Under the pieces are notes generated by a model that ran no database searches, had not been told where the DNA came from, and was given only the letters and a program-made list of their open reading frames with translations. Positions 14,327-46,563 of a stretch of 64,000 bases of DNA are shown piece after piece. The stretch is from NCBI GenBank assembly GCA_000004985.1, contig GG738901.1; one strand, given 5' to 3'. How positions within the stretch are numbered: the first letter of the stretch is position 1; every line of letters starts with the position of its first letter. This stretch comes from Naegleria gruberi. Lineage: Eukaryota. The position numbers were made by a program, and so were the translations under genes.

Positions 14327-14400
14327 CCGCCCCACGTGGGGCTCGAACCCACGACCGTTGGATTAAAAGTCCAACGCTCTACCGACTGAGCTAGCAGGGC
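14327..14400 (-). tRNA. tRNA-Lys(TTT)
   Basis: Minus strand: GCCCTGC-TA-GCTCAGTCGGTAGAGC-G-TTGGA-CTTTTAA-TCCAA-CGGTC-GTGGG-TTCGAGC-CCCAC-GTGGGGC-G. It is a canonical cloverleaf with A and B boxes and anticodon UUU. Downstream on the minus strand the sequence is T-rich. Confidence 0.85.
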
Positions 14401-26393: not shown

Positions 26394-28076
26394 TCATCTG
26401 ATACAATCAAGTACATAATGTAGGAAATAATAAATATCAGCGAAGGTGTACTTGATTTGATCATTTCATAAAGAACTTTTCTATTCTTAAGATTAGAATA
26501 AATCACCATAAGGAATTGTCTAGGAGCAATTTGACCCTTGAATTTTCCCAACTTGTCATTGATCTGAATTTGCCTCACATCGCTTACACTAAATCCAAAT
26601 GCTGTCAAAATCCAATTAATCAAGGAAATGTATTTTGTTGCCTGAACTGTTTTTAACTCTGAAACTAAATCTGTTTTTGGATCATACTTCATGACAGTAT
26701 ATTGTCCATTGAAAAAGTTTGAAGGTTGTAACCAAATTGAAGGAGCATTTTGAATACTCTTTGTATGTTTTCTCTTTTGAGCTTCCATGAAAAAATAATA
26801 ACGACTATAAACTTCTGACATCATGGCTCTCTTCCAAATGAAAATGAGTCCCAAACAGAATAGACCAATCCAGAAAACATTGCTTTGTTTCCATCTATTC
26901 AATCTACTGGCAGTCAACCAAGAATAGAAAAATACAATGAGTGTAAAGTCCCAACTCGTTACAATACCAAATGAATATAATTCTGATGAAATTGGATACA
27001 AGAGTGCAGTACCAAAATTAGTCATGAAATCCAACAATAAATGAGAACTCAAGCAACATGCAGATAATGTTGTACAATGTGTAAAGCTGTTAAATCCATG
27101 CAAGCCCAACACTTTCTGAACTCCAAAACCAATGAGTGGGGATAATAATAAATTAATAGGCAGAGAATGTGAAATAGTTCGCCTAAATGTAAGACTATTC
27201 TTGTCACGTCTTTCAAGCATGGCTTTCCAATTTCTTCTTGCGTTAGTAACTGTTGGTTGAGTATCCTCAGAATCAGAATCATATTGAGATAAATTACTAG
27301 AGCTACCAGCAGGAGTCTGTGCTGCATTAAGTGAAGAACTACTGAAACTTGAAGTCATTCCACCACCAGAAGATTCCTCCTGTTTCTTATTTGTTAATGA
27401 AATAAAAAGCTCCCACAATCTATGAATTCTGTCAATCATTCTCGAAAATCCCTTGAAGAATGACAAGAAAAACGAAATGATGAATAATGCAATATCTACA
27501 TCAGGTAAATTAGCCAAAATCATTCCAACTACGTAATACTTTTGTTCAAAAGTCAAATGGGAGAAGAATCGTTTAATTCTCCTCAGAAATTTAAACATAT
27601 TCGTGCTCAACACTTTAAAGAATTGTTTGAGTGATGTTTTTCTCAATAATTGTATCTTATCCTTTCCCATCATTAATTTACTTGCTCTATAGAGTTTCAA
27701 TTATAATATTTGGATCATTATTTTCCAATCAAGGCAATACATTCCATTGTCATCATTATCCGATAACAATATTTAAATAACAATTAATAGTAAATTTAAA
27801 TAATAATATTGATGATAATAATAATAATATTATAAATTAAATTGATGATCATCAAACATACCCATTAGCAGCCATTACTCCTCCATCCACAAGTGATTTT
27901 CCAATCAAGTAGAGAAATTGTTGTTGATCGGAGGTGTGTTTCAAATGTTCACTGTGTTTGACCATTGGACTCTCAGGAATCATTCGAAATCTCTTCCCTT
28001 TATCCGATACAAAATTCCTCTCAAACAAGTATCTCGAAATGACATAACCAAATATTGAGTGAATATCTGTTAACAT
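26390..28076 (-). CDS. Polytopic membrane protein, 504 aa, 2 exons (28076-27862, 27686-26390)
   Basis: Exon 1 starts at an ATG in A-rich context and ends …AANG with donor GTATGT (phase 2). The 175-nt AT-rich intron ends CTCTATAG. Exon 2 continues G-ASKLMMGKDK… in the frame of the 26390-27700 ORF. There are at least 8 hydrophobic helices. A HxxxD-like motif (LSSHLLLDF) and SFTH hint only weakly at PAP2-like chemistry, so I leave the family unassigned. Confidence 0.55.
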
Positions 28077-31269: not shown

Positions 31270-32250
31270 TTACAGAACAAATCTTGGTACGTTCTCATTT
31301 TCCTGTGCTAAATAATTTATATTATCAATGTTATTCATTGATAACATGTTTCCAATATTAAATTGAGTAAGGTCTGTATTCTGAGAGAGGAGAAATGTCA
31401 GAATAGTTTCAGAATCATTTGGTCCTGTATATTCTGTGAAATAATCAGAGAAGGGATACTTTTCCAATTTTTCCTTAAAGAGATCAAGCTTGGTAAAAAC
31501 TATTGAAACATCCGCTGGTATATATTCTGAATAATTTACAAATTCACTAAAATTTTGTAAAGCCAACCAAAGACAATTAGCTCCAGAAATTGAGTCTGTT
31601 AAATTGTAATCTGCAAGGGAAATTAAATAAATTACTCGTGTCATGGTATTGTCAAAATGAGAAATCCACTTTCGTTTCTCATTTCTTTGTGGACTAGGAT
31701 CAATTAGTTTACTTGTTTCAAATGAAAATTCATAAATTGATGACTTGGAATGAGGTATTTTAGTTTGTAAAAGATCATGAATTGTAAAATCTGCATTGAT
31801 TGCTTGTAATTTGGCAATGAAATTCTCAGAAAAAAAGTATCGAATATTTTCCATATATCTGAAATGATGTGAAATGAATTCCAATTCCTCACTCTTTAGC
31901 ATTGTTAAATATTTCATAAATTCGATCATGCTTGATGTGAAAACTCCACTTTTCCTAGCTTTTTTAATTTCCTCATTTAAATTACTGAATTTAAAATCGA
32001 CTATTTTGAATGTTTGCCAACAGATGTCCAAACATCGAATGACATACTTTCGAATATGCAATTCTCTTTCTTCCGCATTCATCATGCTATTAGTTTCTTT
32101 CGATAGATGATAAATTCCATGTCGAAAGGTTGACTTTCCACTTGAACATGCTCCTAGAATTAGTATTTGTTTTTTGCATGGTGTAATTCTGCGTCTCAAA
32201 GCAGTATCAATAGCTTGACTGTGAAGTTTCTGCTGCTTTCGTTTACTCAT
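31270..32250 (-). CDS. Divergent heterotrimeric G-protein alpha subunit-like protein (326 aa)
   Basis: G1 P-loop KQILILGACSSGKSTF (compare KLLLLGAGESGKST). G3/switch II region DPSPQRNEKRKWISHFDNTMTRVIYLISLADYN (compare [32 protein letters not shown]). G4 TKLD with LFKEKLEKYPFSDYFTEYTGPNDSE (compare [26 protein letters not shown]). A helical-domain insert lies between G1 and G3. DVGG is replaced by DPSP and the C-terminal TCATDT motif is not evident. Confidence 0.75.
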   Translation of the reverse strand: MSKRKQQKLHSQAIDTALRRRITPCKKQILILGACSSGKSTFRHGIYHLSKETNSMMNAEERELHIRKYVIRCLDICWQTFKIVDFKFSNLNEEIKKARKSGVFTSSMIEFMKYLTMLKSEELEFISHHFRYMENIRYFFSENFIAKLQAINADFTIHDLLQTKIPHSKSSIYEFSFETSKLIDPSPQRNEKRKWISHFDNTMTRVIYLISLADYNLTDSISGANCLWLALQNFSEFVNYSEYIPADVSIVFTKLDLFKEKLEKYPFSDYFTEYTGPNDSETILTFLLSQNTDLTQFNIGNMLSMNNIDNINYLAQENENVPRFVL

Positions 32251-32623: not shown

Positions 32624-33061
32624 ATGTTGAACAATAAATCTGAGCGAAGTGGTGATGAAAAAGAGGAGGATCTTGTGATTCAGAATCCCTCTAACTGTAA
32701 ATGTAATAATCACAACAATGGTAAGCAGCATCTTGAAGGGACAAATTTAATGCAACAACCACAACCACTGTTGGATGATGATGTGAATGATATTCTTCAA
32801 TTATTAACAATAGAAAGTTGCAGTGGAGGTTGTAGCTTTGATTGTCTTAAATTCGAAGAGAAGGAAGCAGTCGAAGAGGATACCTGTAATCCAATGTCGC
32901 AACAACATCTTCCTTCCGATATCAAATCGGAACCAATTCTCCTACTGCTTACTGATAAGAAGGCAACATCAACAATGGATCACAACGTAAGTTATCATCA
33001 AACATGTAAATTAACGTGCCATTTGGGCGATTTGACTAATTCAGAAGTCGTATGCATCTAA
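32624..33061 (+). CDS. Hypothetical acidic/Cys-containing ORF (145 aa) in the Gα–cyclase intergenic region; possibly a separate small gene or a 5' exon
   Basis: ORF with ATG only. No similarity recognised. Confidence 0.25.
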   Translation: MLNNKSERSGDEKEEDLVIQNPSNCKCNNHNNGKQHLEGTNLMQQPQPLLDDDVNDILQLLTIESCSGGCSFDCLKFEEKEAVEEDTCNPMSQQHLPSDIKSEPILLLLTDKKATSTMDHNVSYHQTCKLTCHLGDLTNSEVVCI

Positions 33062-33239
33062 CAAACAAGGCGACAATTTTCATCATGAAAAAAGAACAGA
33101 CAATATCATCAACAAGAAGAACAAGGCTTCCTCATCATTAGGCAGTGCTTTTAAAGAAGATTTTGTAAATTTTGTTTCAGAATCCACAAGTTCCTCTTAC
33201 ATTCCGCAACAGCCATTCACAACATTATATTCGAAAAGA

Positions 33240-36200
33240 ATGAAGGACGAAGAGATGGTGGAGAATAATCAATCTACTGTTAATGAAGATGGAATCAAGA
33301 CATCATCTGAAGCTAAACCAACACAATTTAACCACTCCTCACATCATCAAAGGCCTCATCATATTAACAAGGGTCTCGGAGAAGAACAACAATACAAATT
33401 TCCTTCATCTATTACACCACTTTCACTGGCCAATATTCATGCCAATGCATCGACTAACTTACTGCTAACTTCATCAACATTATTTAATTCTTCAAGTGAA
33501 TCACATGGTGGTGGAACCATTTCGAGAAGCTCCTCCAATACTTCAATGGATAGCTCCTCCTATTCACTCTTGAATAATCACCATCATCTAACCACATCTT
33601 CCTCACCCTCTGATGGTTTTCACTCAACTCTAAAATCCCTAGAAAATGTTCTCCCTCCATTCTTTACTCCATGCGTGCCACCTCATGCATCATTCAATTA
33701 CTATTCAGAACATTATTGGGGAGAACATCCCTTATCACTAACCTCCTTCTCTCCAATTCTTCATTATGAAAAGAAGTCATCTCTAACGATTATTTGTCGA
33801 TACACACCACAACAAACTAGGAATTCTCCAAGAAGGGAGAGACCTTCCTCTCAAAAAGAATTAATAGAGAATGAGATTTATTGTCTGAAAGTTTCACTGG
33901 ACAAACCATCCATTCCAAAGCTGGAAAGGGATGCAGAAATTTCTCGATTCTTGACCAATGAATTTTCTCAAGTGTTGGATCCAGCACAACAGGTTATTGT
34001 CAGTACTAAGGCCTATTTGTCTGATTATTTTATTCTCGTGAGGGAGTTTATTGATTGTGTTTCGTTGAGATCATTTATTGATAGATCGAAAACATATGCT
34101 AGAGCAGAACCAATTACTGATGAGAATTTTGAAACCTTAACAGATGATACTGTAACACTTCTCAATGAAGAACAACGAGTGAAAGAAAACATTACAATAT
34201 TGGAAAGTAATTTAACACTTGCTATTTCTATTTGTATGAGTGTTGCTCAACTGCATCACTCAAGAGTTTGTCATGCTGACATTAGGCCAGAAAATATAAT
34301 TGTAGAAGGACCTAAATGCAATATAAGATTGATTGATTTTGGAAAGAGTACATTCCTCCCTTTGGAGCATCCATTTTTATATACCGATAAAATTATTGGT
34401 AGTCAAATGTATTGTGCTCCAGAGGCAACAGGAAAGATTCCAAAACCAATAGGTTTCCACACTGATATATATTCACTTGGATTTGTTCTCTTTGAGTTAT
34501 TTTCCAAAGAACATCCATTTACCAAGTTTAGGACATTAGATTTCGTATTTCAACATTTGACTCAACAGCCAGAGTCCTTGTTTCAAAATCTAGCGAGAAG
34601 GTCTTTTATATCAGCCAATGAAGGAAACCTATTCACAGCTGCTACTAAAGCAATTTCAAGACTAATTACCAAAGCAATTCAAAAATCTATTGAGAAACGT
34701 TATTTGAGTATTTTTGGATTGAAACGAGATTTGGTCTACATACAGAATGCTATTCAACTAGAAGATATGGAAGCTCTTGAAAATTTTCAAGCTGGTATGA
34801 ATGATGTTCAAACAACTTTATCCATACCTTATGGTGTATATGGTAGAGAGGAAATTTTCAAAAAATTGGAACTGAAACTTGAAAATATGATGGAATCTAG
34901 TGAGCCAACGATTGTCCTTCTGGGGGGCTATAGTGGCATAGGTAAATCATGTATTGTTAAGGAGTTTAGGACAAGAAGTAAAACAGCAATACAATTCTTT
35001 GAGGCAAAATACGATCAACATATGAATGTACCTTACTATGCCATTATTTCCATATGTAAACAAATTATTGGCGACGTTCTTGGAGAATCTGAATCAGTGA
35101 TTAAGGATTTCAGATTCCAACTTGGTACACTTATCAATTCAGATCAATTAGAAATGTTGAGTGATGCAATTCCTGACATGTCATATTTATTTACAACTAA
35201 TGCAACCAAAAAGCATACCTCCCCATCAATGGGAGATCAGAATGGAGAGCGTATGAAGCTCTTTTCACAAGGAAGTAAGTAATATTTTGAATTTAACATT
35301 ATAACAATATTATATTGCTCAGTTATTCATCTCTTTAGTGTTTATACTCATTTAAAGAAAAAGAGGTTATGCATTTTCTTGGATGACTTGCAATGGACTG
35401 ATTTTGATAGCATGAAGCTATTGAAGGAAATTCTTGGAACTGGTTCTTGTGATACTGTTCCTCTTTTAATTATTGGAGCATATAGAAATAACGAAGTGGG
35501 AAAGGACCATCCTCTATTTTACTTTTTAGAAAATCTCAAACTTAAAGTGAACATTGAAGAAATTGAAGTTGTTGAGTTGACAGAAGATCAATCTAACATG
35601 ATTGTCTCAGAGTCTTTAAGGAAAAATAGAGCTGAAACAGAAGAACTAACCAAAATACTCTTCTCTAGGACGAATGGAAACCCCTTCTTTTTAAAGCAGT
35701 TATTGGCTGGTTTATTTAAGGACGGATCTATTTATTTCGATACTCAAACAGATACTATTACATGGGATAAAAAGAAAATAGAAAATGCAGAATACTCTGA
35801 AAATGTTATTGACTATCTCCTTGGACATTTGGAAAAATTACCAAAACAAACACAAGATATTCTTGCATTTGCTTCTTGCTTTGGAAATAAGTTTTCCAAT
35901 GAAGACATGCTCCACCTACTCAATCAGCAACAAGAAGAAAAGATAGACTTGATGCAACTTAAAGAAAGATTGAACTATGCGGTGAAGGAGGGATGGATTT
36001 CAAATATCAATTCTGGTAATTTACGATTTAATCATGATAGACTCCAACAAGCTGCTTATGAATCACTGCCTTTGAATGAAAGGTTGAGAATTCACTATAC
36101 CTATGGTAAGCAGCTTCTCAAAAAAGCAGAAGAAGATGATTCTTTGGAGGAACGTTTATTTGATATAGTTGTACAGTTAAATCACAAACATAATGATCCT

Positions 36201-39200
36201 GCTTTCTTGGAGAATAGAGATGAGAGAAGATTACTCATTGACCTCAATAATAGAGCTGCAAAGAAGGCTTTGGAAACATCATCTACAGATAAAGCCATTG
36301 GCTTTGTTTATATTGCAAGGCAAATTCTAGAACACGAACCAGACTGTTGGAGTGAAGAAACTTATAAGTTGGCTTTTGAGAGTTTACTAATTGTTGGTAA
36401 TTGTAACTATTCTGTAAATATAGAATTGGCAACCTCTCTATTCATGGAAGCTATTCAAAAAGCTCAAAACAAGACAGATCTTTATGAGGCATGCAACCAT
36501 GGATTGATGGCCTATCTTTCACAAGGAAAATATGAAGATGTGTTTAAAATTTTGACTGATCATGTATTTACTACATATGAAGAGTTGAATTTCCTTACTC
36601 AGGAGCATACTGTTGAATCCTTGACAACATGGATACTTAACAAGATGAAATACATGAAAGAACATGTGCTCGTTAATTTTACTCAAAAATCTGACATTCT
36701 CAATTTGCCAGATATTGATGATTTGGAAAAGTGGCATCTTATTTGTTTGCTCACTCAATCCTGTCCTGCTGTTTTTCATATGAATAACTCACTCAGCAAA
36801 CACTACTTTATGATTATGATATTAATATCGTCTGATATAGTTTTAAATAATGGCATTACTCCTCTTTCCCCATTGTTAATTTCAGTCTTTGCATGGTCTT
36901 GGTGTAATTTTGAGTTTTATCCTCAGATGAACATGTTCTTAGAGGCAGGATTAGAGATGGAAAAGACTAGATTCAGGAATGAGCATGAATTGGCAAGTTG
37001 CACATTGATGAAGTTGATGAGTTATTACTTTTCGCCAACAATTAACCCTCTTGAGGTGTGGAATATATCCGAGGAAGCCTTCTTATTGTCTGTGAAATCA
37101 AAGAACAAACACTATGGCGGTTTCTCTATTCTGTGGTATCCATTCCATCACTTATTCTATAGCCACGGAGATGTAAAGACTTCTATTGGATTGAGCTTGA
37201 ATTCAATTGAGATTTTCAAGAGAAATGGAAATGTTATGTTGATGGATGCCAGTAAAATGATACTGGAATTGAAATATGTTCTTTCAGGAGATGTAGACCA
37301 TTACCTGCCAACGTATGTAAGCCAAGTGAAGGAATATCCATTCTTTAGACAAATGCACTACTCGTTCAAGGGAATTTCACTCTATTTCCAAAATGATATT
37401 GAAAAATCTTTCAAGTGTATGGAAAAATCGTATGATTTTAGAGAAGACTCTGTTGGTATGTGTTCAAGCTGGATTGATTTAATCTTCCTAGGTTTAATCT
37501 CAGCTATCTTTTTGAGAAGTGCTCAAGAAAAGATTGAAAAAGCCCAAGAAATACTGAAATATTCTATAGAAAGATTGGAAATGATTTCCCAAGCTAATTC
37601 TTCTGTTTTTCTTGCTCCTTTGGAGTTCATAAGAGCCGAGACATTGTACTCAGAATATTGTAGAACAGGTGTCGAAAATACTAGAAAAATCATTTCTCAC
37701 TACAGAAAGAGTTATATTATGGCTGAAAAGGAAAGAAACACCTTTTTAGCTAGGCTGATTAATTTGAGAACAGGAGAGTTTTACAACAGTCTAGGTATGG
37801 ATGATGGTATTAGTGGAAACTACTTCCTTAGAGCTATGGAATCTTTTGAACAGTTTGGTGCTTCCATCGTTGTTGATTATATTTTGGAGAATTATTCAGG
37901 TCACATCGATGGCTATTCATCATTTAGTAATAGAAATCCTGAACAAGTATTCTCTAACACTTCTCTATCTGATGAAACAACAGATCACTCTCTTGCTGGA
38001 GTAACAAAGAGCAGAATTTCTGAATCAACAGAATTGGATTTTAGAGAGATTTTCATTTCAATTCTGCCAATTCTTTCAGAACAAACGTTATCACCAAGAT
38101 GTTGTTTGATTTTGAAGAGAGATTCAACAGTTTATGTAGATGCCGAATTTAATGCAGACCTGAATTCTATTGAAGCACTTTCGTCTACCAAACAATTCGA
38201 AAATAGTGATTTGGACAAATTTTCAGATTTATTCCCTCTCAAGATGATTCACAGAACTCTAAGATCCAGAACAGAGCAACAACTCGTATGGAATGACAAT
38301 GAGAAAGAGTATTACTTTGTGAAGAATGTAGTGGCCTCTGCTTTATCTATTCCTATCATGAAGAAAAAGACAGTCATAGGTATGCTTTTTATTATTATTT
38401 TATTTATATTATTTAATGTATTAAGGTTGTATATACTTGGAAAATAAGGAAACGAAGGATGTATTCACAACTGAAAAAATTAACCTTGCCAAACTTATCA
38501 TCTCGATCAGTTTGGACAATGCTGGAATTTTCACATCTATTAACAAATCCTATGCTAGGTTTTTACCTGCTGAATTCTTAAAGTTGCTTGGAAAGAGTCA
38601 CGTAACTAAGGTAAGGTTGGGCGATGCAGTTTCTAGAGAAATGACAGTGCTCTTCAGTGATATTTATGGATTTACAGAGATTATGGAGGGACTTTCTGCA
38701 AAGGATGGCTTTGCTTTTATTAATCTACTATTGAAGAGTATTGCACCTCCAATTTCAAGAAACTCTGGATTTATTGACAAGTTTGTTGGTGATGGAATAT
38801 TGGCATTGTTTATTGAACCGCAAGGAGCTGTCACTGCAGCTTTAGAAATGATTTCAGAATTGGAAGTTTTCAATAGTAGAAATAATACCAATGTAAAGTT
38901 GGGAGTTGGTTTGCATCATGGTATTGTTCAACTTGGTACGATTGGATATGAGCAACGATTGGATGCTACTGTTATTTCAGATACTGTGAACACAGCTAGC
39001 AGATGTGAATCTCTCACAAGAACTTTTCATTCACATATTCTAGTTACTAAACCAGTTATGGATGCTGTTACAGTGCCACACAGTGTGATAAGTACCGAGT
39101 TGGGTAAATTCATGCTGAAAGGAAAACACATACCTCATCAAATTTACAATATCGCTTCTAAATCATGGAAAGGAAGTGGTAGTGCTAAAGAATTCGCTTT

Positions 39201-39423
39201 ACTAAGCAAAGTTATTGATCTCTTCTCCAGGAGTGAATTTACCGAATCATTTGCCCTCGCAGAAACAATTCTCAAGAATACAAAGAACAATACCATTATA
39301 GCTGCATGCAACATGTATAAGGAAGCATCAACATTATACGGATCAGTTGTTTTACCAAGTGAATGGCAAGGTGAAATTCGGTTGACCAAGGATGGAGAAG
39401 TCAGAGAGTACTTTTCAAAATAA
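33240..39423 (+). CDS. Multidomain signalling protein of about 2017 aa: Ser/Thr protein kinase – STAND P-loop NTPase – long helical region – GAF-like segment – class III adenylyl cyclase; 3 exons (33240-35278, 35366-38379, 38426-39423)
   Basis: Kinase: HADIRPENIIV, DFGKS, CAPE, DIYSLGFVLFEL. NTPase Walker A IVLLGGYSGIGKSCIV lies at the end of ORF 1, and Walker B LCIFLDDLQW is created only after splicing an 87-nt intron (GTAATA at 35279 to AAAAAGAG| at 35365). The adjacent GTAAGT at 35275 gives the wrong phase. The second intron, GTATGC at 38380 to TTAAG| at 38425 (46 nt, phase 1), regenerates …SALSIPIMKKKTVIG-CIYLENKE…, a GAF-like terminal strand. Cyclase: MTVLFSDIYGFTEIM, DKFVGDGILALF (Lys consistent with adenine specificity), GLHHGIVQLGTIG, DTVNTASRCES. 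The exons sum to 6051 nt. The N-terminal 230 aa are S/H/N-rich. Confidence 0.7.
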
Positions 39424-39582: not shown

Positions 39583-42039
39583 ATGAAAAAACGACATTCA
39601 ACCTTTTCCACCACAATCAATCATCGAGATTTGATTAAATCATCTAATTTTAATTCATTATCTACTAGTAATATTCAATCATCATCATCACCAATATTGA
39701 GCACTACTTCTAGAAAAGGCTTCCGAGAACGACCACTCATCAAATTCATATTAAAACAACGTTCCAAACGATTGCAACAACAAGGCTCTAGTGAGTTTGC
39801 TGGTGCGGAAGTGGAAATTTTGAAGGCTTGTTGGAGAAAAATAGAGGAAGAGGAGATGAAGGACTATCGAGAAAATCTCTCGAATCGATTGGGGTTTTAT
39901 TTTGATGATGAGGAATTGTTGGCCATGTTCGGAAATCAATTGATGAAGGATGAAGAGGAACTACAGCAGAGGACGACAATGGATACTACCAACACTGAAC
40001 CAAGTTCGGCTGGTGGTGCTACTCTTGACAATTCTTCACTGAAGAGTGGTGACAGTGCTCGTTCATTGACAAGTTTCGGATCTGACTCGAAACTAAATTC
40101 GCCAATTAGTCCCAACCTCGACAAGAAGCATTTGCAGTCAACTTCATCGACCAAAAGCTCCACTTCATTTGCATCCTTCTCTGGTGCACCATCATCACTC
40201 ACACCAAGCCCAAACATTGAGGAGAACAAAAATCTTTCCTACCTCTACGATATTCATACTTTTCCTAGCAAGCTGAATCTGATACCAACCATGCATTATA
40301 ATGTGTTGGATGTTGTTGAGTTGTCCTCTGTACAGCAAATTGTAAATATAACAAGTCCTTCTTCGGAGATTGGGATACTTAAAGATTGTACAAATGATTC
40401 TTCTCCTACTGTAAATATTGAATCAACCACTTTTAGTCTCGAGATTTTAGATAGTTTTATTACTGTTGATTCTTTTGAAGATTTTTCAAATCCTTCATAT
40501 AATCCACTCAATATTAGACATTTATATTGTGATTATTGGTCCAACAAACTAGAATTCAAACAAAGGATCAGTAAATCTTCTCTTACTTCAAACAATAAGA
40601 AGGAAAATGAAAAATCAAAAAACTATATACCATTTGAAGAATTGGAAAAATGTAGAAATTGTACAGAACTCAAATTGAACAATAACAAGATTAGATCTCT
40701 AGATTCTAAACATTTTACCAATTTTGCACACTTGACAGAATTGAATCTATCTTCGAATAGAATGTCTAAAGCAAGACTGCCTGAGGATATTTTCTCACAT
40801 ATGCCACATTTGCAGAGGCTTTCTCTCGATTATATGGGTCTTAAGACTCTACCAAAATCAATTAACAAATTGGTAGAGCTTACCTACCTTTCACTTTCCT
40901 TTAACAAATTGAACACTTTCAACTTGCTACATGGAAAAGACAGACACTTGAATGATTTTTGGCCAAAATTGACCAATTTGGAGTACTTGAATTTGTCTGG
41001 AAATAGATTGAATAGATTTCCTTCAGAAATTTGTAATTGCAAATCATTGGAATTTTTGAGTTTGTCCAACAATAGAATAATTAACGAGATACCAAAGGAA
41101 ATTGAAAATCTCAAAAAATTAGCAATACTCTTCTTGAATGGAAACAAAGTTACTGCTCTTGATATTAATAGAAATTTGGAATTTTTAGAGAATTTGACCC
41201 ATTTGGAATTGGGTCACAATCCTAATATCCATGTGGTTCCACCTCCTGTTTACAATTTAACCAAATTAGAATCACTCTGTTTGAGCCATCTAACCATTAG
41301 TCATTTATCGGATGATATTGGAAAATTAAGAAATTTGACTCACTTGGATTTGTATGGCTCCAAACTAACTGGTCTTCCAAAGGGTATTTCACAGCTTATC
41401 AACCTTAGGAATTTGGATATGCGATATTGCAGAGGTATCAAGGAGTTCCCTATTGAATTGTTTGGTCAAAAAGTTTCAAGTAGCACTATCACTACTACCT
41501 CTCCAATGAAATCCCTTACTAGATTGAGTCTTAGCTATACAATGATAGAGAGCATTCCTGAGGATATTTCCTCTCTCCAGAGTTTACAAGCACTTTTGGT
41601 GAATGACTGTCCCTTGCTCGAAGAAATTAAGGGTATTGACAAGCTTGTCAATCTTGTAGAGTTTGACATCAGTCGTTGCATCTCCCTTGTTGAGCCTCCT
41701 TCTGATGTGTGTGAGAGAGGTCTTGCCCACATTAGAGGATATCTGAAAGAAAAGGACGATGGACCTTCTATTTTTTTAAAGTTTATTGGATCAGTATTTG
41801 GTGGAAATACCTCAAATAATTCCTCCACCAACAAGAAGAAACTACCTTCACCAATAGGCACAGAAAACAACCTCAAAGTGGAACACAATGAATTACTTGT
41901 TGCCTCACCAGTACCAAGCATTAATTCTGGAGATGATGATGGTGATAGTGATTCTGATGATGAGATTGGCGCATCTAAAAAGAAGAAACCAAGTCCAAGT
42001 GGCAGTACTGTCAAGTCATTATTTTCCTTTTGGAAATAA
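39583..42039 (+). CDS. Leucine-rich repeat protein (classical LxxLxxLxLsxNxLxxlP repeats), 818 aa, S-rich N-terminus, acidic/basic C-terminus
   Basis: ATG in A-rich context. About 18 tandem 22-24-aa LRRs run from about aa 330 to 690 (ELNLSSNRMSKARLPEDIFSHMPHLQRLSLDYMGLKTLPKSI…). The C-terminal tail is DDDGDSDSDDE…KKKKPSPSG. It starts 160 bp downstream of the cyclase gene on the same strand. Confidence 0.65.
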   Translation: MKKRHSTFSTTINHRDLIKSSNFNSLSTSNIQSSSSPILSTTSRKGFRERPLIKFILKQRSKRLQQQGSSEFAGAEVEILKACWRKIEEEEMKDYRENLSNRLGFYFDDEELLAMFGNQLMKDEEELQQRTTMDTTNTEPSSAGGATLDNSSLKSGDSARSLTSFGSDSKLNSPISPNLDKKHLQSTSSTKSSTSFASFSGAPSSLTPSPNIEENKNLSYLYDIHTFPSKLNLIPTMHYNVLDVVELSSVQQIVNITSPSSEIGILKDCTNDSSPTVNIESTTFSLEILDSFITVDSFEDFSNPSYNPLNIRHLYCDYWSNKLEFKQRISKSSLTSNNKKENEKSKNYIPFEELEKCRNCTELKLNNNKIRSLDSKHFTNFAHLTELNLSSNRMSKARLPEDIFSHMPHLQRLSLDYMGLKTLPKSINKLVELTYLSLSFNKLNTFNLLHGKDRHLNDFWPKLTNLEYLNLSGNRLNRFPSEICNCKSLEFLSLSNNRIINEIPKEIENLKKLAILFLNGNKVTALDINRNLEFLENLTHLELGHNPNIHVVPPPVYNLTKLESLCLSHLTISHLSDDIGKLRNLTHLDLYGSKLTGLPKGISQLINLRNLDMRYCRGIKEFPIELFGQKVSSSTITTTSPMKSLTRLSLSYTMIESIPEDISSLQSLQALLVNDCPLLEEIKGIDKLVNLVEFDISRCISLVEPPSDVCERGLAHIRGYLKEKDDGPSIFLKFIGSVFGGNTSNNSSTNKKKLPSPIGTENNLKVEHNELLVASPVPSINSGDDDGDSDSDDEIGASKKKKPSPSGSTVKSLFSFWK

Positions 42040-42137
42040 AGTGTTGAGTAAATAAAAACTGATGAAACATTTAGACATCACCAAATATAATGTCGTTTTT
42101 TCCCGTAAATGAGAAATATTTGCATTAAGAACAAGAT

Positions 42138-42209
42138 TCCCGTGTAGTCCAATGGCTAGGATACCTGGCTTTCACCCAGGAGGTCCGGGTTCAATTCCCG
42201 GCATGGGAG
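42138..42209 (+). tRNA. tRNA-Glu(TTC)
   Basis: TCCCGTG-TA-GTCC-AATGGCTA-GGAT-A-CCTGG-CTTTCAC-CCAGG-AGGT-CCGGG-TTCAATT-CCCGG-CATGGGA-G. Canonical cloverleaf with anticodon UUC and an intact B box GGTTCAATTCC. Confidence 0.9.
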
Positions 42210-42214
42210 AATCG

Positions 42215-43740: not shown

Positions 43741-46563
43741 TTAAAGGTCATCATCTGATTCAACCTCTTCGACTCCCTCCACTATTGGTTCTTCTTCTTC
43801 TACAATCATAGGGCCACTTTGATTGTCAACTCTGGCTTTGGTGAATTTGTAGAGTTTGTCCAAGAGTGAACGACCTTGATCCCACCAAGAAATATCAACC
43901 TCATGATAGGTGCCACGAAGTGGATTGATAACTCCAATATTCTTAATTTCCATTCCATCCAATCTAGCCATGGCTGCATAGCAGAGTAATTGAATAATCC
44001 ACTCAACTTCAATATCTTGGGATACCGAACATTTAATATCAATAATGGTCTCGCCATCAATGATGATATCTGCCTCTCCAGTAACATGTTTTCCATAACT
44101 GAGACTTCTATGGGTATTAACTGAGCTTTCAGTTTTTTCTACAATAAATGGAACAAAGTGCTCTTGTAAATTATTGAACAGTTCTGTATAGTTTGGAGCA
44201 ATGTCCTTAATAAAGTCAAACTTTTTCTTTAGATTGGTATTGCCAAGATAGAGCATTCTGGTTCTTCCCTCTTTAACAACTGCATCAAGTTTGGAAATTT
44301 CGAATACACTTTCTAGAATATCAATTGACTCATAATTTGGATTTGTAAAAATTCTGTAAGCTGTTTTTAAACTGTCTACATAACCGGGTGGGAAGGCATA
44401 TTCTGTCATTACTGGAATAACCTCGAATGAAAATTGTCCCTTCTCCAATATTTTCTCGAAAGATTCAATAATCTCAGTCATGACTATCTTTTCATAGCCA
44501 TCAGTAATAGATTTTAACAAAGCTTTTGGAGGTTTTCCATTTCTCATCAACTGCTTCAATTTCTTTGCATATCTATTAAAGACCTGGATACTGCCTGTAT
44601 TTAATACGATTGCCTCGTTAATGAAGAGTTCAGTGCATGTATGACTAAAACCTCCTCCATTAGGTATTTTCTCAGAAATCATTCTACAAAATAAAGTATC
44701 AATAAAGTTTCCAAAGTCTGTAAACATTTGATTTTCGTAAACCACGTCACAGTATGCAAAGTCTGTATCCACAATTTTGGTTTTCGTAAATTCGATTTGT
44801 GGCAAACATCCTTCTTCCTTGAGTATTGTCATGAGTTCTCCATCAATATTACGAACCATATTTGTTACGGTGTATGGATTAATAGATGAGTCGGATGCTG
44901 ATCTTGGCTGTTCTGAAATACGCAAGTCTGTGGGACTATGTAATCTGAATACGCTACGATCAATCTCTGTTATATAACTCAAACAAGTTGCTGTCTTGGG
45001 GAGAACAATGTGTAACTCATCCTTTGCTCTGGTAACAGCCACATATAATACACGTCTTAGTTCCGCATCATTATCACCTTTCCATTTATCATTTGATGAA
45101 TCCACCAAGAAAACAATATCCCACTCCAAACCTTTAGACTTGTGTATGGTTGATAGGCAAACTTTTCCAGTTGTTGTGTGTCTTTCCATTTCCTTTAAAG
45201 ATTTTGATTTTTCCATAATAGTAATATGTGGAATGAAGAATTTAGATAATTGTTCCTCTACCTTATAGAGACCATAATTTGTTGGAGAAAGGATTGCTAT
45301 TCTTTCTCTTGGCACTCCACGTTTCAAATATTCTGATATTTTCTTAGCAACATACAAACCCTGGTTATCATTTACAATGATTGGTTTAAGATTAGATTCT
45401 CTTGTGGTTGTCATTTCTTTTGGAATATTATCTGGATTATTTCTCAAAATTGCATTTGCCACTTGCAAAATTTCTGGCGTACTTCTATAATTTCTAGTCA
45501 GTGTTAACAGCTTAGAGTTTGGATATTTTGAGTGAAAATTCAAAATATGTTCCACACTGGATCCTCTCCATGAGTAAATGTTTTGCGAATCATCTCCTAC
45601 GGCAATTATCTTGCATCCTCTTTTGTGAAACTCTTCAAAAATCTCTGCTTGAAAATTATCAATATCTTGATACTCATCAATTATGAGATACTTTTTCTTT
45701 TTACAAATTTCATCCGCAATTTCTGGATAATTCTTCATTAAGTTCCTCAATCTATATCCATATTCAATCACACAAGCTTGAGAATCAAAATATTGCCAAT
45801 ATTTCTTCAATGTCTTGTAAGCAAATGCATCAATGGTTCCAATAGTAAATTTACTCTTAACTCCAATACTGGCAAGCTTTTCCTTCATATCATTTGCTGC
45901 CAATCTTGAAAATGTTGTCAACATGATCTGATGAGCTGGAATTTTCAAATACTTTATCATGTAAACAATTTTACAAATAATGGTTGTTGTCTTTCCACTT
46001 CCAGCGCAAGCCAACACTAACAAGTCATCATTCACATCTCCAAAAACAACTTGCTTTTGTTCTTCACTCAAATCAATCTGTACATCATCAATTGTAAATG
46101 TTTTCATAATTTCCTCTTCGGATGGAAAAACAATTTCCTTCTTCTTCCTTACTCTTTTTACAGGCTTTGAAATTTCCTCATCACCTCCAAAATTAATTTC
46201 CGGCATTAAACTAATTGCCTCATTACTCATAGCATTAATGATTTCTTCCTTTTCTTGAGGTTGGTGAGTAGAAAATAATTCCTTCACCTCATCATCTTGT
46301 TGCTTCAAAGTCTGTTTCCTTCTCGTAGCATTATTAATCAAAGATTGAGAAAAACATCTCCTCATCATTACATGATTCAATAAAGTAGAGTTATTGGTTT
46401 TCAACAAGGCTGATGAAGATCCTGTCGGGAATGATTTATTTCCACCATTAATTTTAATATGATTAATTATATTATTGTTATTACTATTTAAATGATGTAA
46501 AGTTGAAGTGGATGATAATGTATTCAAGCGATAGAGAAGTGAATTGTGCTTGATGTTGCGCAT
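43741..46563 (-). CDS. UvrD/PcrA/Rep-family SF1 helicase fused to a C-terminal RecB-like PD-(D/E)xK nuclease domain (940 aa)
   Basis: Helicase motifs: I LVLACAGSGKTTTI, Ia TFSRLAANDMKEKL, II LIIDEYQDI, III VGDDSQNIYSWRG, IV TLTRNYRSTPEIL, and V/VI TIHKSKGLEWDIVFL…RRVLYVAVTRAKDEL. The C-terminal 150 aa carry GEADIIIDGETIIDIKCS (the D…D.K core of the PD-(D/E)xK fold) followed by QLLCYAAMA (the QxxxY motif of RecB-family nucleases). An N-terminal extension of about 150 aa is N/S-rich. Confidence 0.8.
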   Translation of the reverse strand: MRNIKHNSLLYRLNTLSSTSTLHHLNSNNNNIINHIKINGGNKSFPTGSSSALLKTNNSTLLNHVMMRRCFSQSLINNATRRKQTLKQQDDEVKELFSTHQPQEKEEIINAMSNEAISLMPEINFGGDEEISKPVKRVRKKKEIVFPSEEEIMKTFTIDDVQIDLSEEQKQVVFGDVNDDLLVLACAGSGKTTTIICKIVYMIKYLKIPAHQIMLTTFSRLAANDMKEKLASIGVKSKFTIGTIDAFAYKTLKKYWQYFDSQACVIEYGYRLRNLMKNYPEIADEICKKKKYLIIDEYQDIDNFQAEIFEEFHKRGCKIIAVGDDSQNIYSWRGSSVEHILNFHSKYPNSKLLTLTRNYRSTPEILQVANAILRNNPDNIPKEMTTTRESNLKPIIVNDNQGLYVAKKISEYLKRGVPRERIAILSPTNYGLYKVEEQLSKFFIPHITIMEKSKSLKEMERHTTTGKVCLSTIHKSKGLEWDIVFLVDSSNDKWKGDNDAELRRVLYVAVTRAKDELHIVLPKTATCLSYITEIDRSVFRLHSPTDLRISEQPRSASDSSINPYTVTNMVRNIDGELMTILKEEGCLPQIEFTKTKIVDTDFAYCDVVYENQMFTDFGNFIDTLFCRMISEKIPNGGGFSHTCTELFINEAIVLNTGSIQVFNRYAKKLKQLMRNGKPPKALLKSITDGYEKIVMTEIIESFEKILEKGQFSFEVIPVMTEYAFPPGYVDSLKTAYRIFTNPNYESIDILESVFEISKLDAVVKEGRTRMLYLGNTNLKKKFDFIKDIAPNYTELFNNLQEHFVPFIVEKTESSVNTHRSLSYGKHVTGEADIIIDGETIIDIKCSVSQDIEVEWIIQLLCYAAMARLDGMEIKNIGVINPLRGTYHEVDISWWDQGRSLLDKLYKFTKARVDNQSGPMIVEEEEPIVEGVEEVESDDDL

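What the first reader, a model, noticed from the sequence alone, without database searches (positions are those of the whole stretch)
33240..39423. Single 2017-aa gene fusing an active-looking Ser/Thr kinase, a STAND P-loop NTPase, a long helical/GAF-like region and a C-terminal class III adenylyl cyclase
The three track ORFs are one gene. The Walker B motif of the NTPase (LCIFLDD) and a Gly codon at the GAF-like/cyclase junction are created only by splicing the 87-nt and 46-nt introns. Domain combinations with cyclase + STAND NTPase are known. One form has an N-terminal cyclase (bacterial LuxR-type cyclases, sAC-like enzymes) and another has kinase + NTPase (PknK/MalT-like). A protein with kinase at the N-terminus, NTPase and helical array in the middle, and a single cyclase catalytic domain at the C-terminus is not an architecture I know to be characterised. 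The single C-terminal cyclase domain implies homodimerisation for activity, possibly controlled by the NTPase switch and by autophosphorylation.
Basis: partly seen in the sequence, partly recalled or inferred. Interest (0 to 1): 0.75.

Follow-up and report, generated by a model that had tools for sequence, protein, structure and literature searches.

The report
Annotated Naegleria kinase–NTPase–GAF–cyclase gene
The three reading frames are one real gene for a giant signalling protein (kinase-like domain, switch ATPase, helical array, GAF sensor, cAMP-making cyclase), but it is already annotated in Naegleria gruberi and the same layout is common in bacteria, so it is an uncharacterised member of a known family, not a new architecture.

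Summary
The three + strand ORFs are one gene. Spliced, it is identical to Naegleria gruberi NEG-M XP_002671953.1 / UniProt D2VVC1 ("serine/threonine protein kinase", 2148 aa). That model adds an upstream exon (32750-32986).

- Intron 1 is 48 nt (35275-35322), not 87 nt.
- Walker B (LCIFLDD) lies wholly in exon 2.
- Intron 2 (38380-38425) is right, but the split Gly codon sits inside the GAF domain.

All the proposed domains hold:
- a PknB-like kinase fold with Lys, HxD, Asn, DFG and APE but no Gly-rich loop;
- an AAA_16/STAND NTPase;
- an alpha-solenoid of about 600 aa;
- a true GAF domain;
- a class IIIb cyclase with every catalytic residue (Lys/Thr pair, so predicted to make cAMP).

The same colinear layout occurs in other Naegleria proteins, in two eukaryote-like metagenome contigs, and as single ORFs in 10 of the 80 best bacterial loci. 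The kinase-ATPase-GAF module matches the described, functionally unknown "CP1" kinase/pseudokinase family and resembles fungal group X histidine kinases. No member with a cyclase output has been tested. Verdict: real, ordinary, already known, modest interest.

The parts
32750..32986 (+). Upstream exon 0 of the GenBank model (79 aa, low complexity, not conserved). Its reality and the true start codon are unverified.
   Evidence: P0306 (XP_002671953.1) residues 1-79 map here exactly. It is followed by a GTAAGT donor. No homologue conserves this stretch.
32987..33119 (+). Annotated intron 0 (133 nt, GTAAGT...AAG)
   Evidence: Gap between the two N-terminal pieces of P0306 on the window. Taken from the database model only.
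33120..35274 (+). Exon 1. It encodes the low-complexity N-terminus, the kinase-like domain and the Walker A half of the NTPase.
33747..34769 (+). Protein-kinase-like domain (residues about 170-510 counted from ATG 33240). Motifs: beta3 Lys in YCLKV (33876-33899), catalytic loop HADIRPEN (34269-34295), DFG (34329-34349), APE (34410-34430). It has no Gly-rich loop.
   Evidence: Pfam Pkinase 1.2e-22. The AlphaFold model has mean pLDDT 82.9 and its best solved match is PknB, TM 0.76. Residue census.
34836..35474 (+). AAA_16 / STAND P-loop NTPase core, spanning intron 1. Motifs: Walker A GGYSGIGKS (34923-34952), Walker B LCIFLDD (35364-35396), GAYRNNE Arg (35463-35495).
   Evidence: Pfam AAA_16 at 84.6 bits in the correct model. 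The motifs are invariant or nearly so in family alignments.
35275..35322 (+). Intron 1, 48 nt, GTAAGT...CAG, 19% GC.
35323..38379 (+). Exon 2: Walker B, winged-helix/GNPFF motif (35670-35699), alpha-solenoid, most of the GAF domain.
36072..37928 (+). All-helical solenoid of about 30 helices (TPR-like sensor/scaffold arm of the STAND module)
   Evidence: The AlphaFold model of exon 2 has mean pLDDT 80.6. Foldseek hits TPR proteins, including the STAND-TPR protein 6mfv and Avs3.
38031..38535 (+). GAF domain (residues 1582-1734), interrupted by intron 2
   Evidence: The family profile hits PDE5, PDE10 and PDE2 GAF domains (5.7e-13). Pfam GAF scores 23.3 bits, above the cut-off of 22.4, and matches 18 of 18 relatives.
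38380..38425 (+). Intron 2, 46 nt, GTATGC...AAG, 11% GC, phase 1. It splits the invariant GAF Gly codon.
38426..39423 (+). Exon 3 including the stop codon: last GAF strand and helix, linker, cyclase, C-terminal tail.
38551..38595 (+). Conserved linker motif YARFLPAEFLKLLGK between the GAF domain and the cyclase
   Evidence: F-x-P-x-x-F-x-x-x-L is at least 90% conserved in 55 class IIIb cyclases. It aligns to the pre-catalytic segment of bPAC.
38542..39171 (+). Class IIIb adenylyl cyclase catalytic domain. Residues: metal Asp in FSDI (38644-38676); Lys and the second metal Asp in DKFVGDG (38773-38811); Thr, Asn and Arg in DATVISDTVNTASR (38959-39009); Lys in LKGK (39109-39129).
   Evidence: Pfam Guanylate_cyc 2.8e-15. 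The nearest solved chains are bPAC, OaPAC, CyaB, Slr1991 and Spirulina CyaC. Thr occupies the specificity position in 98 of 113 relatives.
39172..39420 (+). C-terminal tail: helix pair plus the conserved motif LPSEWQGEIRLTKDGE (39352-39399)
   Evidence: Conserved in the Naegleria proteins with this layout and in Acrasis kona 'cya'. Function unknown.

Best explanation
This is the already annotated N. gruberi gene for a soluble multidomain signalling enzyme of about 2000-2150 aa. It is a eukaryotic member of the mainly bacterial family in which a Hanks-type kinase-like domain, a COG3899/AAA_16 STAND NTPase with a long TPR-like solenoid, and a GAF domain form a conserved sensor module. In this family the output domain is exchangeable. 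Here the output is a class IIIb adenylyl cyclase.

Proposed mechanism:
1. The STAND NTPase acts as a nucleotide-dependent switch and oligomerisation device.
2. The solenoid and/or the GAF domain receive the still unknown input.
3. Self-association brings two C-terminal cyclase domains together. Each active site needs residues from both subunits, so the pair forms the head-to-tail homodimer that makes cAMP from ATP.
4. The signal reaches the catalytic domain through the conserved helical linker that follows the GAF domain.
5. The kinase-like domain most likely binds nucleotide and regulates the protein, by autophosphorylation or allosterically. It is less likely to act as a general protein kinase.

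Shown here: the gene structure, the identity of the domains, the intactness of the catalytic residues, and colinear homology with bacterial and eukaryotic relatives.

Inferred: cAMP as the product, activation driven by dimerisation, the roles of the NTPase and the kinase-like domain, and possible CO2/bicarbonate sensitivity, which is typical of class IIIb cyclases.
For: Gene model:
- Searches give the splice junctions. The spliced product is identical to XP_002671953.1.

Domains:
- Pfam, the GAF profile, the kinase fold and the STAND-TPR-like solenoid.

Cyclase:
- The nearest solved structures are all class IIIb adenylyl cyclases: bPAC, OaPAC, CyaB, Slr1991 and CyaC.
- Both metal Asp residues are present, together with Lys, Thr at the specificity position, and Asn, Arg and Lys.
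- Class IIIb is partly defined by the Asp-to-Thr replacement, and all prokaryotic IIIb cyclases tested responded to inorganic carbon (PMC2613629).

Family:
- The protein is colinear over its full length with the bacterial proteins P0004 and P0008, which sit in bacterial gene neighbourhoods.
- The exon 2 module matches 24203 representative clusters.
- 35 of 188 sampled family members carry a C-terminal cyclase.
- 10 of the 80 best bacterial genome loci are single kinase-GAF-cyclase ORFs.
- The CP1 description fits: cytosolic, always fused to the COG3899 ATPase, often with GAF (PMC12599244).
- No strong transmembrane segment was found.
Against: - No transcript or protein data were available, so the start codon and exon 0 are unverified.
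- No activity has been measured for any member with this output.
- The kinase-like domain lacks the Gly-rich loop, and its catalytic-loop Lys is Arg, so phosphotransfer is uncertain.
- The family members P0002 and P0160 have lost cyclase or kinase catalytic residues. Some members are therefore non-enzymatic, and the module can work without catalysis.
- The GAF ligand is unknown.
- Oligomerisation of this STAND type has not been shown.
Confidence: 0.7

Rival explanations
1. The N-terminal domain is a true, active Ser/Thr kinase. Autophosphorylation or phosphorylation of substrates is then a second output or the main control of the cyclase.
For: - beta3 Lys, alphaC Glu, HxD Asp, Asn, DFG Asp, APE Glu and alphaF Asp are all present.
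- The fold is PknB-like, with a complete N-lobe in the model.
- Arg at the catalytic-loop +2 position also occurs in active Src-type tyrosine kinases (HRDLRAAN; my own knowledge).
- The 96-97% identical second copy has Lys there (HADIKPEN).
Against: - The GxGxxG loop is absent. It is replaced by HYEKKSS here and by I-Y-E-S-x-x-S in the bacterial relatives.
- The +2 position is N, K or R across the family.
- About 40% of CP1 members are classed as pseudokinases (PMC12599244).
- I found no report of kinase activity for the homologous fungal S/TKr domain (PMC6324907, PMC5383687).
Confidence: 0.35
2. The kinase-like domain is a pseudokinase. It binds ATP only as an allosteric cofactor, as the kinase-homology domain of receptor guanylyl cyclases does. 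Regulation then runs through nucleotide occupancy of two sites, the pseudokinase and the STAND NTPase.
For: - The Gly-rich loop is missing across the whole family while the structural motifs (APE, alphaF Asp) are about 100% conserved.
- Family members with a degraded HxD or DFG still keep the domain (P0160 HGGIRPEN, P0008 IELDRG).
- The CP1 literature supports this reading (PMC12599244).
Against: The window protein keeps every catalytic side chain. That is unexpected if catalysis were dispensable in this particular copy.
Confidence: 0.45
3. The enzyme is a guanylyl cyclase, as the UniRef names of the N. lovaniensis homologues ('Guanylate cyclase') suggest.
For: The database names. Pfam family PF00211 covers both activities.
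Against: - The specificity positions are Lys (DKFVGD) and Thr. This is the class IIIb adenylyl cyclase signature, not the Glu/Cys (or Glu/Ser) pair of guanylyl cyclases.
- All the best solved matches are adenylyl cyclases.
- The UniRef names appear to be automatic and derived from the Pfam family name.
Confidence: 0.05
4. The three ORFs are separate genes, or a pseudogene or assembly artefact, rather than one functional transcript.
For: The 96-97% identical second copy in the same assembly is annotated as two models, XP_002678938.1 (partial) and XP_002678939.1. No RNA data were examined.
Against: - Both introns are short, AT-rich and GT..AG, and they carry stop codons in the exon frame.
- Splicing restores residue-by-residue colinearity with full-length homologues from Naegleria, other eukaryotes and bacteria, including inside the NTPase and GAF folds.
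- There are no internal stops over 6.1 kb.
Confidence: 0.04

Closest known systems
Naegleria gruberi NEG-M XP_002671953.1 / EFC39209.1 / UniProt D2VVC1 ('serine/threonine protein kinase', 2148 aa)
   Same: Identical sequence over all 2029 residues of the corrected model, with the same 48-nt and 46-nt introns. It is this gene.
   Different: The database model adds a 119-aa N-terminal extension through an upstream exon and a 133-nt intron. The name mentions only the kinase. No function has been tested.
Bacterial kinase-like / AAA_16 (COG3899) / GAF / class III cyclase proteins, e.g. Symploca sp. SIO2E6 (L003), Thiomargarita sp. (L018), Chloroflexaceae (L023), Okeania (L050, L059), Spirosoma (L049), and the metagenomic P0004 and P0008
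   Same: The domain order is the same and the proteins are colinear from end to end. Shared motifs include FLDDLQWAD, GNPFF, G-x-LYLEN, F-[VL]-P-x-EFL-x-x-LGK and the class IIIb residues.
   Different: Only 21-30% identity. They are intron-less single ORFs, and some carry an extra PAS domain. They lack the Naegleria low-complexity N-terminus and kinase inserts. None has been characterised.
CP1 kinases/pseudokinases of cyanobacteria and proteobacteria (PMC12599244), including the cyanobacterial 'dual protein kinases' with Ser/Thr kinase + GAF + HisK (PMC1262709)
   Same: A cytosolic kinase-like domain that is always fused to a COG3899-type predicted ATPase, often followed by GAF or PAS. The catalytic motifs are degraded to varying degrees.
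   Different: The outputs described are mostly histidine kinase or FhlA-type. A cyclase output and eukaryotic members are not discussed. Assignment by the authors' own profiles was not tested here.
Fungal group X hybrid histidine kinases (S. pombe Mak2/Mak3, C. albicans Chk1)
   Same: Large eukaryotic proteins with an N-terminal Ser/Thr-kinase-related domain and a central GAF domain (PMC6324907, PMC5383687). Pfam TPR_CHK1 (PF25503) hits bacterial relatives of the window protein.
   Different: The output is HisKA/HATPase/REC, feeding a phosphorelay (peroxide and stress signalling), not a cyclase. The window protein itself does not reach the TPR_CHK1 threshold.
GAF- or BLUF-regulated class IIIb adenylyl cyclases (Anabaena CyaB1/CyaB2, bPAC, OaPAC, Slr1991, Spirulina CyaC)
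   Same: The catalytic domain belongs to the same subclass. The enzymes are homodimers with a sensor directly N-terminal through a helical linker, and the linker motif is shared. CO2/bicarbonate responsiveness is reported for class IIIb (PMC2613629).
   Different: These are small proteins of 350-860 aa without a kinase-like domain or a STAND NTPase.
Other kinase/cyclase/STAND combinations: NCBIfam TIGR03903 'TOMM system kinase/cyclase fusion protein'; M. tuberculosis Rv0386-type cyclase-AAA_16-TPR-LuxR; PknK (kinase + AAA_16/MalT-like)
   Same: They combine two or three of the same domain types. The AAA_16 region of the window protein aligns to TIGR03903.
   Different: The domain order differs: the cyclase is N-terminal or directly after the kinase (my recollection for TIGR03903, Rv0386 and PknK). 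They have no GAF domain. The score is 94 bits against a cut-off of 705.75, so the window protein is not a member of TIGR03903.

Membership tests
Class III nucleotidyl cyclase, subclass IIIb (adenylyl cyclase) | Catalytic domain matches PF00211 above the gathering score | tested here: met
   56.8 bits against a cut-off of 21.9; 56.7 bits in P0306
Class III nucleotidyl cyclase, subclass IIIb (adenylyl cyclase) | Two metal-binding Asp residues, transition-state Asn and Arg, and the phosphate-binding Lys | tested here: met
   FSD(1776)I, GD(1820)G, TVN, ASR and LKGK align with the same residues of bPAC and OaPAC and are invariant or nearly so in 55 relatives
Class III nucleotidyl cyclase, subclass IIIb (adenylyl cyclase) | Substrate-specifying Lys, plus Thr replacing the class IIIa Asp | tested here: met
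   Lys in DKFVGD. Thr lies 7 residues before the Asn (DATVISDTVN), aligned to the Thr of bPAC 'DHTLLGDAVN'. Thr is present in 98 of 113 relatives. Definition from PMC2613629.
Class III nucleotidyl cyclase, subclass IIIb (adenylyl cyclase) | Homodimeric enzyme that forms cAMP; response to inorganic carbon | not testable with these tools
   Needs an enzyme assay
STAND P-loop NTPase (AAA_16 / COG3899 type) | Walker A GxxGxGK[ST], Walker B hhhhDD, conserved Arg after Walker B | tested here: met
   GYSGIGKS, LCIFLDD and GAYRNNE. G, G, K, D, D and R are invariant or at least 90% conserved. AAA_16 scores 84.6 bits.
STAND P-loop NTPase (AAA_16 / COG3899 type) | Helical/winged-helix module with a GxP motif, followed by a C-terminal repeat (TPR-like) sensor arm | tested here: met
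   GNPFF is invariant. The model shows an alpha/beta core, then about 30 helices. Foldseek hits STAND-TPR 6mfv (TM 0.46) and Avs3.
STAND P-loop NTPase (AAA_16 / COG3899 type) | Nucleotide-dependent oligomerisation switch | not testable with these tools
   Needs biochemistry (SEC-MALS or cryo-EM with and without ATP analogues)
Catalytically active Hanks-type Ser/Thr protein kinase | Bilobal kinase fold with beta3 Lys, alphaC Glu, HxD Asp, catalytic Asn, DFG Asp and APE Glu | tested here: met
   K217, E233, D347, N352, D366 and E395. Model pLDDT is 82.9 and the best PDB match is PknB.
Catalytically active Hanks-type Ser/Thr protein kinase | Gly-rich (GxGxxG) nucleotide-positioning loop | tested here: not met
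   The beta1-beta2 turn reads HYEKKSSLT. No Gly motif occurs here or in the aligned relatives shown.
Catalytically active Hanks-type Ser/Thr protein kinase | Catalytic-loop Lys (HRDxKxxN) | tested here: inconclusive
   Arg is in place of Lys (HADIRPEN). The family shows N (61), K (53) and R (18) at this position. The near-identical second copy has Lys.
CP1 kinase/pseudokinase family (PMC12599244) | Cytosolic kinase-like domain physically linked to a COG3899-type predicted ATPase, often with GAF or PAS | tested here: met
   Architecture. No strong transmembrane segment. The bacterial relatives are mostly cyanobacteria and proteobacteria.
CP1 kinase/pseudokinase family (PMC12599244) | Assignment by the authors' kinase-family profiles | not tested
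   The profiles are not available in these tools
GAF domain | Sequence-profile match to GAF domains of known structure and to Pfam GAF | tested here: met
   The family profile hits the PDE5 GAF at 5.7e-13. PF01590 scores 23.3 bits against a cut-off of 22.4 for the isolated segment and matches 18 of 18 relatives.
GAF domain | Identified ligand (cNMP, haem, bilin, metal) | not tested
   No ligand-motif analysis was conclusive. Needs binding assays.
Fungal group X hybrid histidine kinase | HisKA + HATPase_c + REC output | tested here: not met
   Pfam finds none of these domains. The C-terminus is a cyclase.
NCBIfam TIGR03903 TOMM system kinase/cyclase fusion protein | Whole-protein score above the curated cut-off | tested here: not met
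   94 bits against 705.75. Only the NTPase region aligns.
Mycobacterial Rv0386-type cyclase-AAA_16-TPR-LuxR regulators | N-terminal cyclase and C-terminal LuxR-type HTH | tested here: not met
   The cyclase is C-terminal and Pfam finds no HTH domain. Relatives with an N-terminal cyclase (P0021, P0023, P0024) match only weakly.

The most novel reading that the evidence does not exclude
This family could be a eukaryotic, inflammasome-like STAND sensor whose read-out is a second messenger. In this reading, ligand- and ATP-driven oligomerisation of the NTPase/solenoid forces the C-terminal class IIIb cyclase domains into active dimers, an induced-proximity burst of cAMP. The Gly-loop-less kinase-like domain would serve as a second nucleotide-gated lock. 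If so, Naegleria and some unidentified eukaryotes would use a bacterial-type 'STAND-to-cAMP' pathway that has not been described in any organism. The same logic would explain the thousands of uncharacterised CP1-COG3899-GAF proteins with other outputs.
Probability: 0.25. Interest if true: 0.6.

Novelty: already known. Interest (0 to 1): 0.27.

Why it matters
The finding adds little that is new. The gene has been in GenBank and UniProt as a single model under the N. gruberi NEG-M genome project accessions, and its layout is widespread.

Its residual value is threefold.

- It is an intact representative of a very large and almost unstudied signalling family: kinase-like domain, COG3899 STAND ATPase, GAF domain and a variable output. 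The exon 2 module alone matches 24203 cluster representatives. A cyclase output gives an easy biochemical read-out (cAMP) for working out how the sensor module operates.
- It flags annotation problems. The product name hides the cyclase. The second N. gruberi copy is split into two models. The N. fowleri homologue looks truncated.
- It documents that this bacterial-type architecture is established, with introns and a multi-gene family, in Heterolobosea and in at least two other eukaryote-like metagenome contigs. This bears on how Naegleria built its unusually large cyclase repertoire, at least 81 cyclases according to PMC9928731.

Tried and rejected
- **87-nt intron 1.** Rejected on homologue alignment, the GenBank model and the AAA_16 score.
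- **A hidden in-frame intron.** I looked in the 19-aa insert (FNYYSEHYWGEHPLSLTSF) and in the kinase insert. Neither has GT..AG boundaries that fit, and both are kept in the database model and the near-identical copy.
- **First whole-protein search.** It did not return the identical N. gruberi entry, because that entry is a non-representative member of a 90% cluster. It was found only through the exhaustive search and a cluster look-up.
- **Structure prediction across intron 2.** I modelled exon 1 (kinase) and exon 2 separately. The GAF-cyclase junction and the cyclase itself were therefore not modelled.
- **PexR (PMC12754779).** It looked like a characterised relative, but it is only a GAF-sigma54 regulator. 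The 'STAND' hit came from the word 'standard'.
- **Origin of the architecture.** An NJ tree of the core gives a monophyletic Naegleria clade (100/100). Its sisters are P0189, P0250 and P0167. P0189 and P0167 lie on contigs with eukaryote-type neighbours, and the context of P0250 was not examined. The core is not closer to cyclase-bearing bacterial members than to the others (22.6% against 23.0% identity, p = 0.91). The cyclase domain is equally similar (40-48%) to many bacterial IIIb cyclases. Transfer of the whole architecture and independent fusion therefore cannot be told apart.
- **Bacterial contamination.** Rejected because of the introns, the neighbouring G-alpha and LRR genes and the identity to the N. 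gruberi scaffold.

Full report
**1. The observation**

The window (33% GC) carries three + strand ORFs at 33240-35282, 35379-38447 and 38437-39423. I enumerated all GT..AG introns that keep the frame.

At the second junction only one candidate is plausible: 38380-38425 (46 nt, GTATGC..AAG, 11% GC). It yields ...KKKTVIGCIYLENKETKDVF.... This aligns without any indel to Naegleria lovaniensis ...RDKSVLGCVYLENRETEDVF....

At the first junction two candidates keep the frame. The other is a 48-nt intron (35275-35322, GTAAGT..CAG, 19% GC).

- All Naegleria homologues read SQSIIHLLRVYAQMKRKNLCIFLDDLQW or a close variant. Bacterial relatives also have residues at these positions.
- Only the 48-nt intron reproduces this stretch, as SQGIIHLFSVYTHLKKKRLCIFLDDLQW. 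The 87-nt intron deletes 13 conserved residues.
- The AAA_16 score rises from 77 to 84.6 bits with the 48-nt intron.

Walker B is therefore encoded contiguously in exon 2. The corrected product is 2029 aa counted from ATG 33240.

**2. Identity of the gene**

The word-indexed protein search returned N. lovaniensis and N. fowleri homologues as the best hits (48% and 40% identity). The exhaustive search with exon 2 found two fragments that are 96-97% identical. A cluster look-up then gave the following:

- The two fragments are N. gruberi NEG-M XP_002678938.1 (911 aa, 'kinase domain-containing protein, partial') and XP_002678939.1 (854 aa, 'soluble adenylate/guanylate cyclase').
- A further cluster member is XP_002671953.1 / EFC39209.1 / UniProt D2VVC1, 'serine/threonine protein kinase', 2148 aa.

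The last 2029 residues of that protein are identical to my corrected model.

So the window is N. gruberi NEG-M, and the gene is already annotated as one gene with the 48-nt and 46-nt introns. The N-terminal extension is low in complexity and is not conserved in N. lovaniensis. I could not verify it.

**3. Domains**

*Kinase-like domain.*
- Pfam finds Pkinase at residues 326-488, covering the C-lobe only.
- An AlphaFold model of residues 130-678 has mean pLDDT 82.9 and shows a complete bilobal kinase. Its best solved match is M. tuberculosis PknB (TM 0.76).
- The residues beta3 Lys (K217), alphaC Glu, HxD Asp (D347), Asn, DFG Asp, APE Glu and alphaF Asp are all present.
- There is no Gly-rich loop, and the catalytic-loop Lys is Arg (HADIRPEN).
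- I surveyed 166 relatives with a kinase-like N-terminus. None of the aligned relatives I displayed has a GxGxxG loop. Lys, Asp, Asn and DFG Asp are mostly kept. The +2 catalytic-loop position is N, K or R.

*NTPase and solenoid.*
- AAA_16 is present, with Walker A GYSGIGKS, Walker B LCIFLDD, the GAYRNNE arginine and an invariant GNPFF motif.
- The exon 2 model (pLDDT 80.6) continues from the alpha/beta core into about 30 helices.
- Foldseek returns TPR solenoids, including the STAND-TPR protein 6mfv and Avs3.

*GAF domain.*
- The first Pfam hit was weak (E = 0.012).
- A profile of 18 family GAF segments hits the PDE5, PDE10 and PDE2 GAF domains (5.7e-13).
- The isolated window segment passes the Pfam threshold, and all 18 relatives match.

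*Cyclase.*
- The nearest solved chains are bPAC, OaPAC, P. aeruginosa CyaB, Synechocystis Slr1991 and Spirulina CyaC.
- Both metal Asp residues, the adenine-specifying Lys, and Asn, Arg and Lys are present.
- The second specificity position is Thr, which is the class IIIb signature (PMC2613629). This Thr is shared by 98 of 113 relatives.
- The prediction is therefore cAMP, not cGMP, despite the 'Guanylate cyclase' names in UniRef.

*Other features.*
- A conserved linker, F-[LV]-P-x-E-F-L-x-x-L-G-K, precedes the catalytic domain.
- A conserved tail, LPxxWxGEIRLxKDGE, follows it. The tail is shared with Acrasis kona 'cya'.
- No strong transmembrane segment is present.

**4. Relatives**

- The protein is colinear from end to end with the metagenomic proteins P0004 and P0008. 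Both lie among bacterial genes such as type VI secretion IcmF/DotU, PemK and Spore_YtfJ.
- The exon 2 module matches 24203 cluster representatives at E <= 1e-3.
- Of 188 sampled family proteins, 35 carry a cyclase.
- A scan of one genome per bacterial or archaeal species found more than 592 loci. Among the best 80, 10 are single ORFs with the order kinase-like, GAF, cyclase. They come from Symploca, Thiomargarita, Chloroflexaceae, Stenomitos, Microcoleus, Spirosoma, Okeania and a proteobacterium. Pfam confirmed two of them.
- Other family members end in histidine kinase, PP2C, GGDEF or sigma-54 modules.
- Among eukaryotes, N. lovaniensis has at least five full-length proteins with this layout. 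Some have degraded cyclase or kinase residues.
- The N. fowleri model stops just before the GAF domain, and a Logan fragment continues it.
- The nearest non-Naegleria relatives in the tree are P0189, P0250 and P0167. P0189 and P0167 lie on contigs with eukaryote-type neighbours (GNT-I, NRDE-2, retro-element integrase).
- Whether the eukaryotic clade received the whole architecture from bacteria could not be resolved.

**5. Literature**

- The module fits the 'CP1' kinases/pseudokinases. These are cytosolic, found in cyanobacteria and proteobacteria, always fused to the COG3899 predicted ATPase, and often carry GAF or PAS. About 40% are classed as pseudokinases, and 'almost nothing is known' of their role (PMC12599244).
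- Cyanobacterial 'dual protein kinases' combine a Ser/Thr kinase, GAF and HisK (PMC1262709).
- Fungal group X histidine kinases such as Mak2/Mak3 and Chk1 have an S/TKr domain plus a GAF domain (PMC6324907, PMC5383687). Pfam TPR_CHK1 hits bacterial relatives of the window protein.
- NCBIfam's 'TOMM system kinase/cyclase fusion protein' matches only the NTPase region, at 94 bits against a cut-off of 705.75.
- I found no experimental work on a kinase-STAND-GAF-cyclase protein.
- The Naegleria pangenome paper counts at least 81 cyclases but does not single this type out (PMC9928731).

**6. Mechanism**

Best reading (confidence 0.7): this is a soluble sensor. The STAND NTPase, the solenoid and the GAF domain control self-association, and with it the obligatory homodimerisation of the class IIIb cyclase. 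The product is cAMP.

The kinase-like domain is a nucleotide-binding regulator. It is slightly more likely to be allosteric (pseudokinase-like) than a true protein kinase.

The anatomy, the residues and the homology are shown here. The activity, the regulation and any CO2/bicarbonate sensitivity are inferred.

**7. Verdict**

- One intron, the protein length and the Walker B claim are wrong.
- The claim of an unknown architecture does not hold. The gene is already annotated and the layout is common in bacteria.
- Novelty: already known, but uncharacterised. Interest: modest.

Noticed in passing
window 31270-32250 (-): A G-protein alpha subunit ORF (Pfam G-alpha, 3.9e-44) lies head-to-head with the kinase-cyclase gene, about 0.5 kb from annotated exon 0. 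A shared divergent promoter is possible, but the arrangement may be coincidence.
   Followed up: no
not in the window: N. gruberi XP_002678938.1 (P0161) and XP_002678939.1 (P0157): A second copy of this gene, 96-97% identical, sits on another NEG-M scaffold. It is annotated as two adjacent models (911 aa 'partial' kinase and 854 aa 'soluble adenylate/guanylate cyclase'), with about 236 residues missing between them. Its catalytic loop reads HADIKPEN (Lys) instead of HADIRPEN. It may be an allele or a recent duplicate, and its annotation probably needs merging.
   Followed up: partly
not in the window: N. fowleri FDP41_008422 (P0003) and Logan fragment P0038: The N. fowleri homologue model (1619 aa) ends at ...AYDQF, just before the GAF domain. 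A separate 407-aa fragment, 65% identical to the window protein, begins with the next residues and carries the GAF domain and the start of the cyclase. The N. fowleri annotation looks truncated.
   Followed up: partly
L083 6001-12339 and L084 10001-15463: The closest non-Naegleria relatives (P0189, 2112 aa; P0167, 1820 aa) are intron-less ORFs on metagenome contigs. Their neighbours look eukaryotic: GNT-I, ankyrin, retro-element integrase, NRDE-2, WD40. Other, unidentified eukaryotes therefore carry this architecture. P0189 shows no Pfam kinase hit.
   Followed up: partly
window 39352-39399 (+): A conserved C-terminal motif, LPSEWQGEIRLTKDGE, follows a helix pair downstream of the cyclase. It is shared by the Naegleria proteins with this layout and by Acrasis kona 'cya', and more faintly by bacterial P0008 (EPWDGIERPEK). 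No known function.
   Followed up: no
window 26390-27700 (-): An ORF matches YdjM (PF04307, 2.1e-14), described by Pfam as an inner membrane protein, in this eukaryotic genome.
   Followed up: no
window 39583-42039 (+), 43741-46563 (-), 21467-25864 (+), 17495-20122 (+): Neighbouring large ORFs: an 818-aa LRR protein that starts 160 nt after the cyclase gene's stop; a 940-aa UvrD/REP-type helicase; and two long ORFs (1465 and 875 aa) with no Pfam match.
   Followed up: no
window 14328-14400 (-) and 42137-42210 (+): tRNA-Lys(UUU) and tRNA-Glu(UUC) genes predicted by ARAGORN.
   Followed up: no
N. lovaniensis P0002 and P0160: Related proteins with the same layout have lost catalytic residues. P0002 has its cyclase Asn changed to Ala and its Arg changed to Trp. 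P0160 has the first cyclase metal Asp changed to Gly (VVFAGI) and the kinase HxD changed to HGG. The gene family therefore contains likely non-catalytic members.
   Followed up: partly
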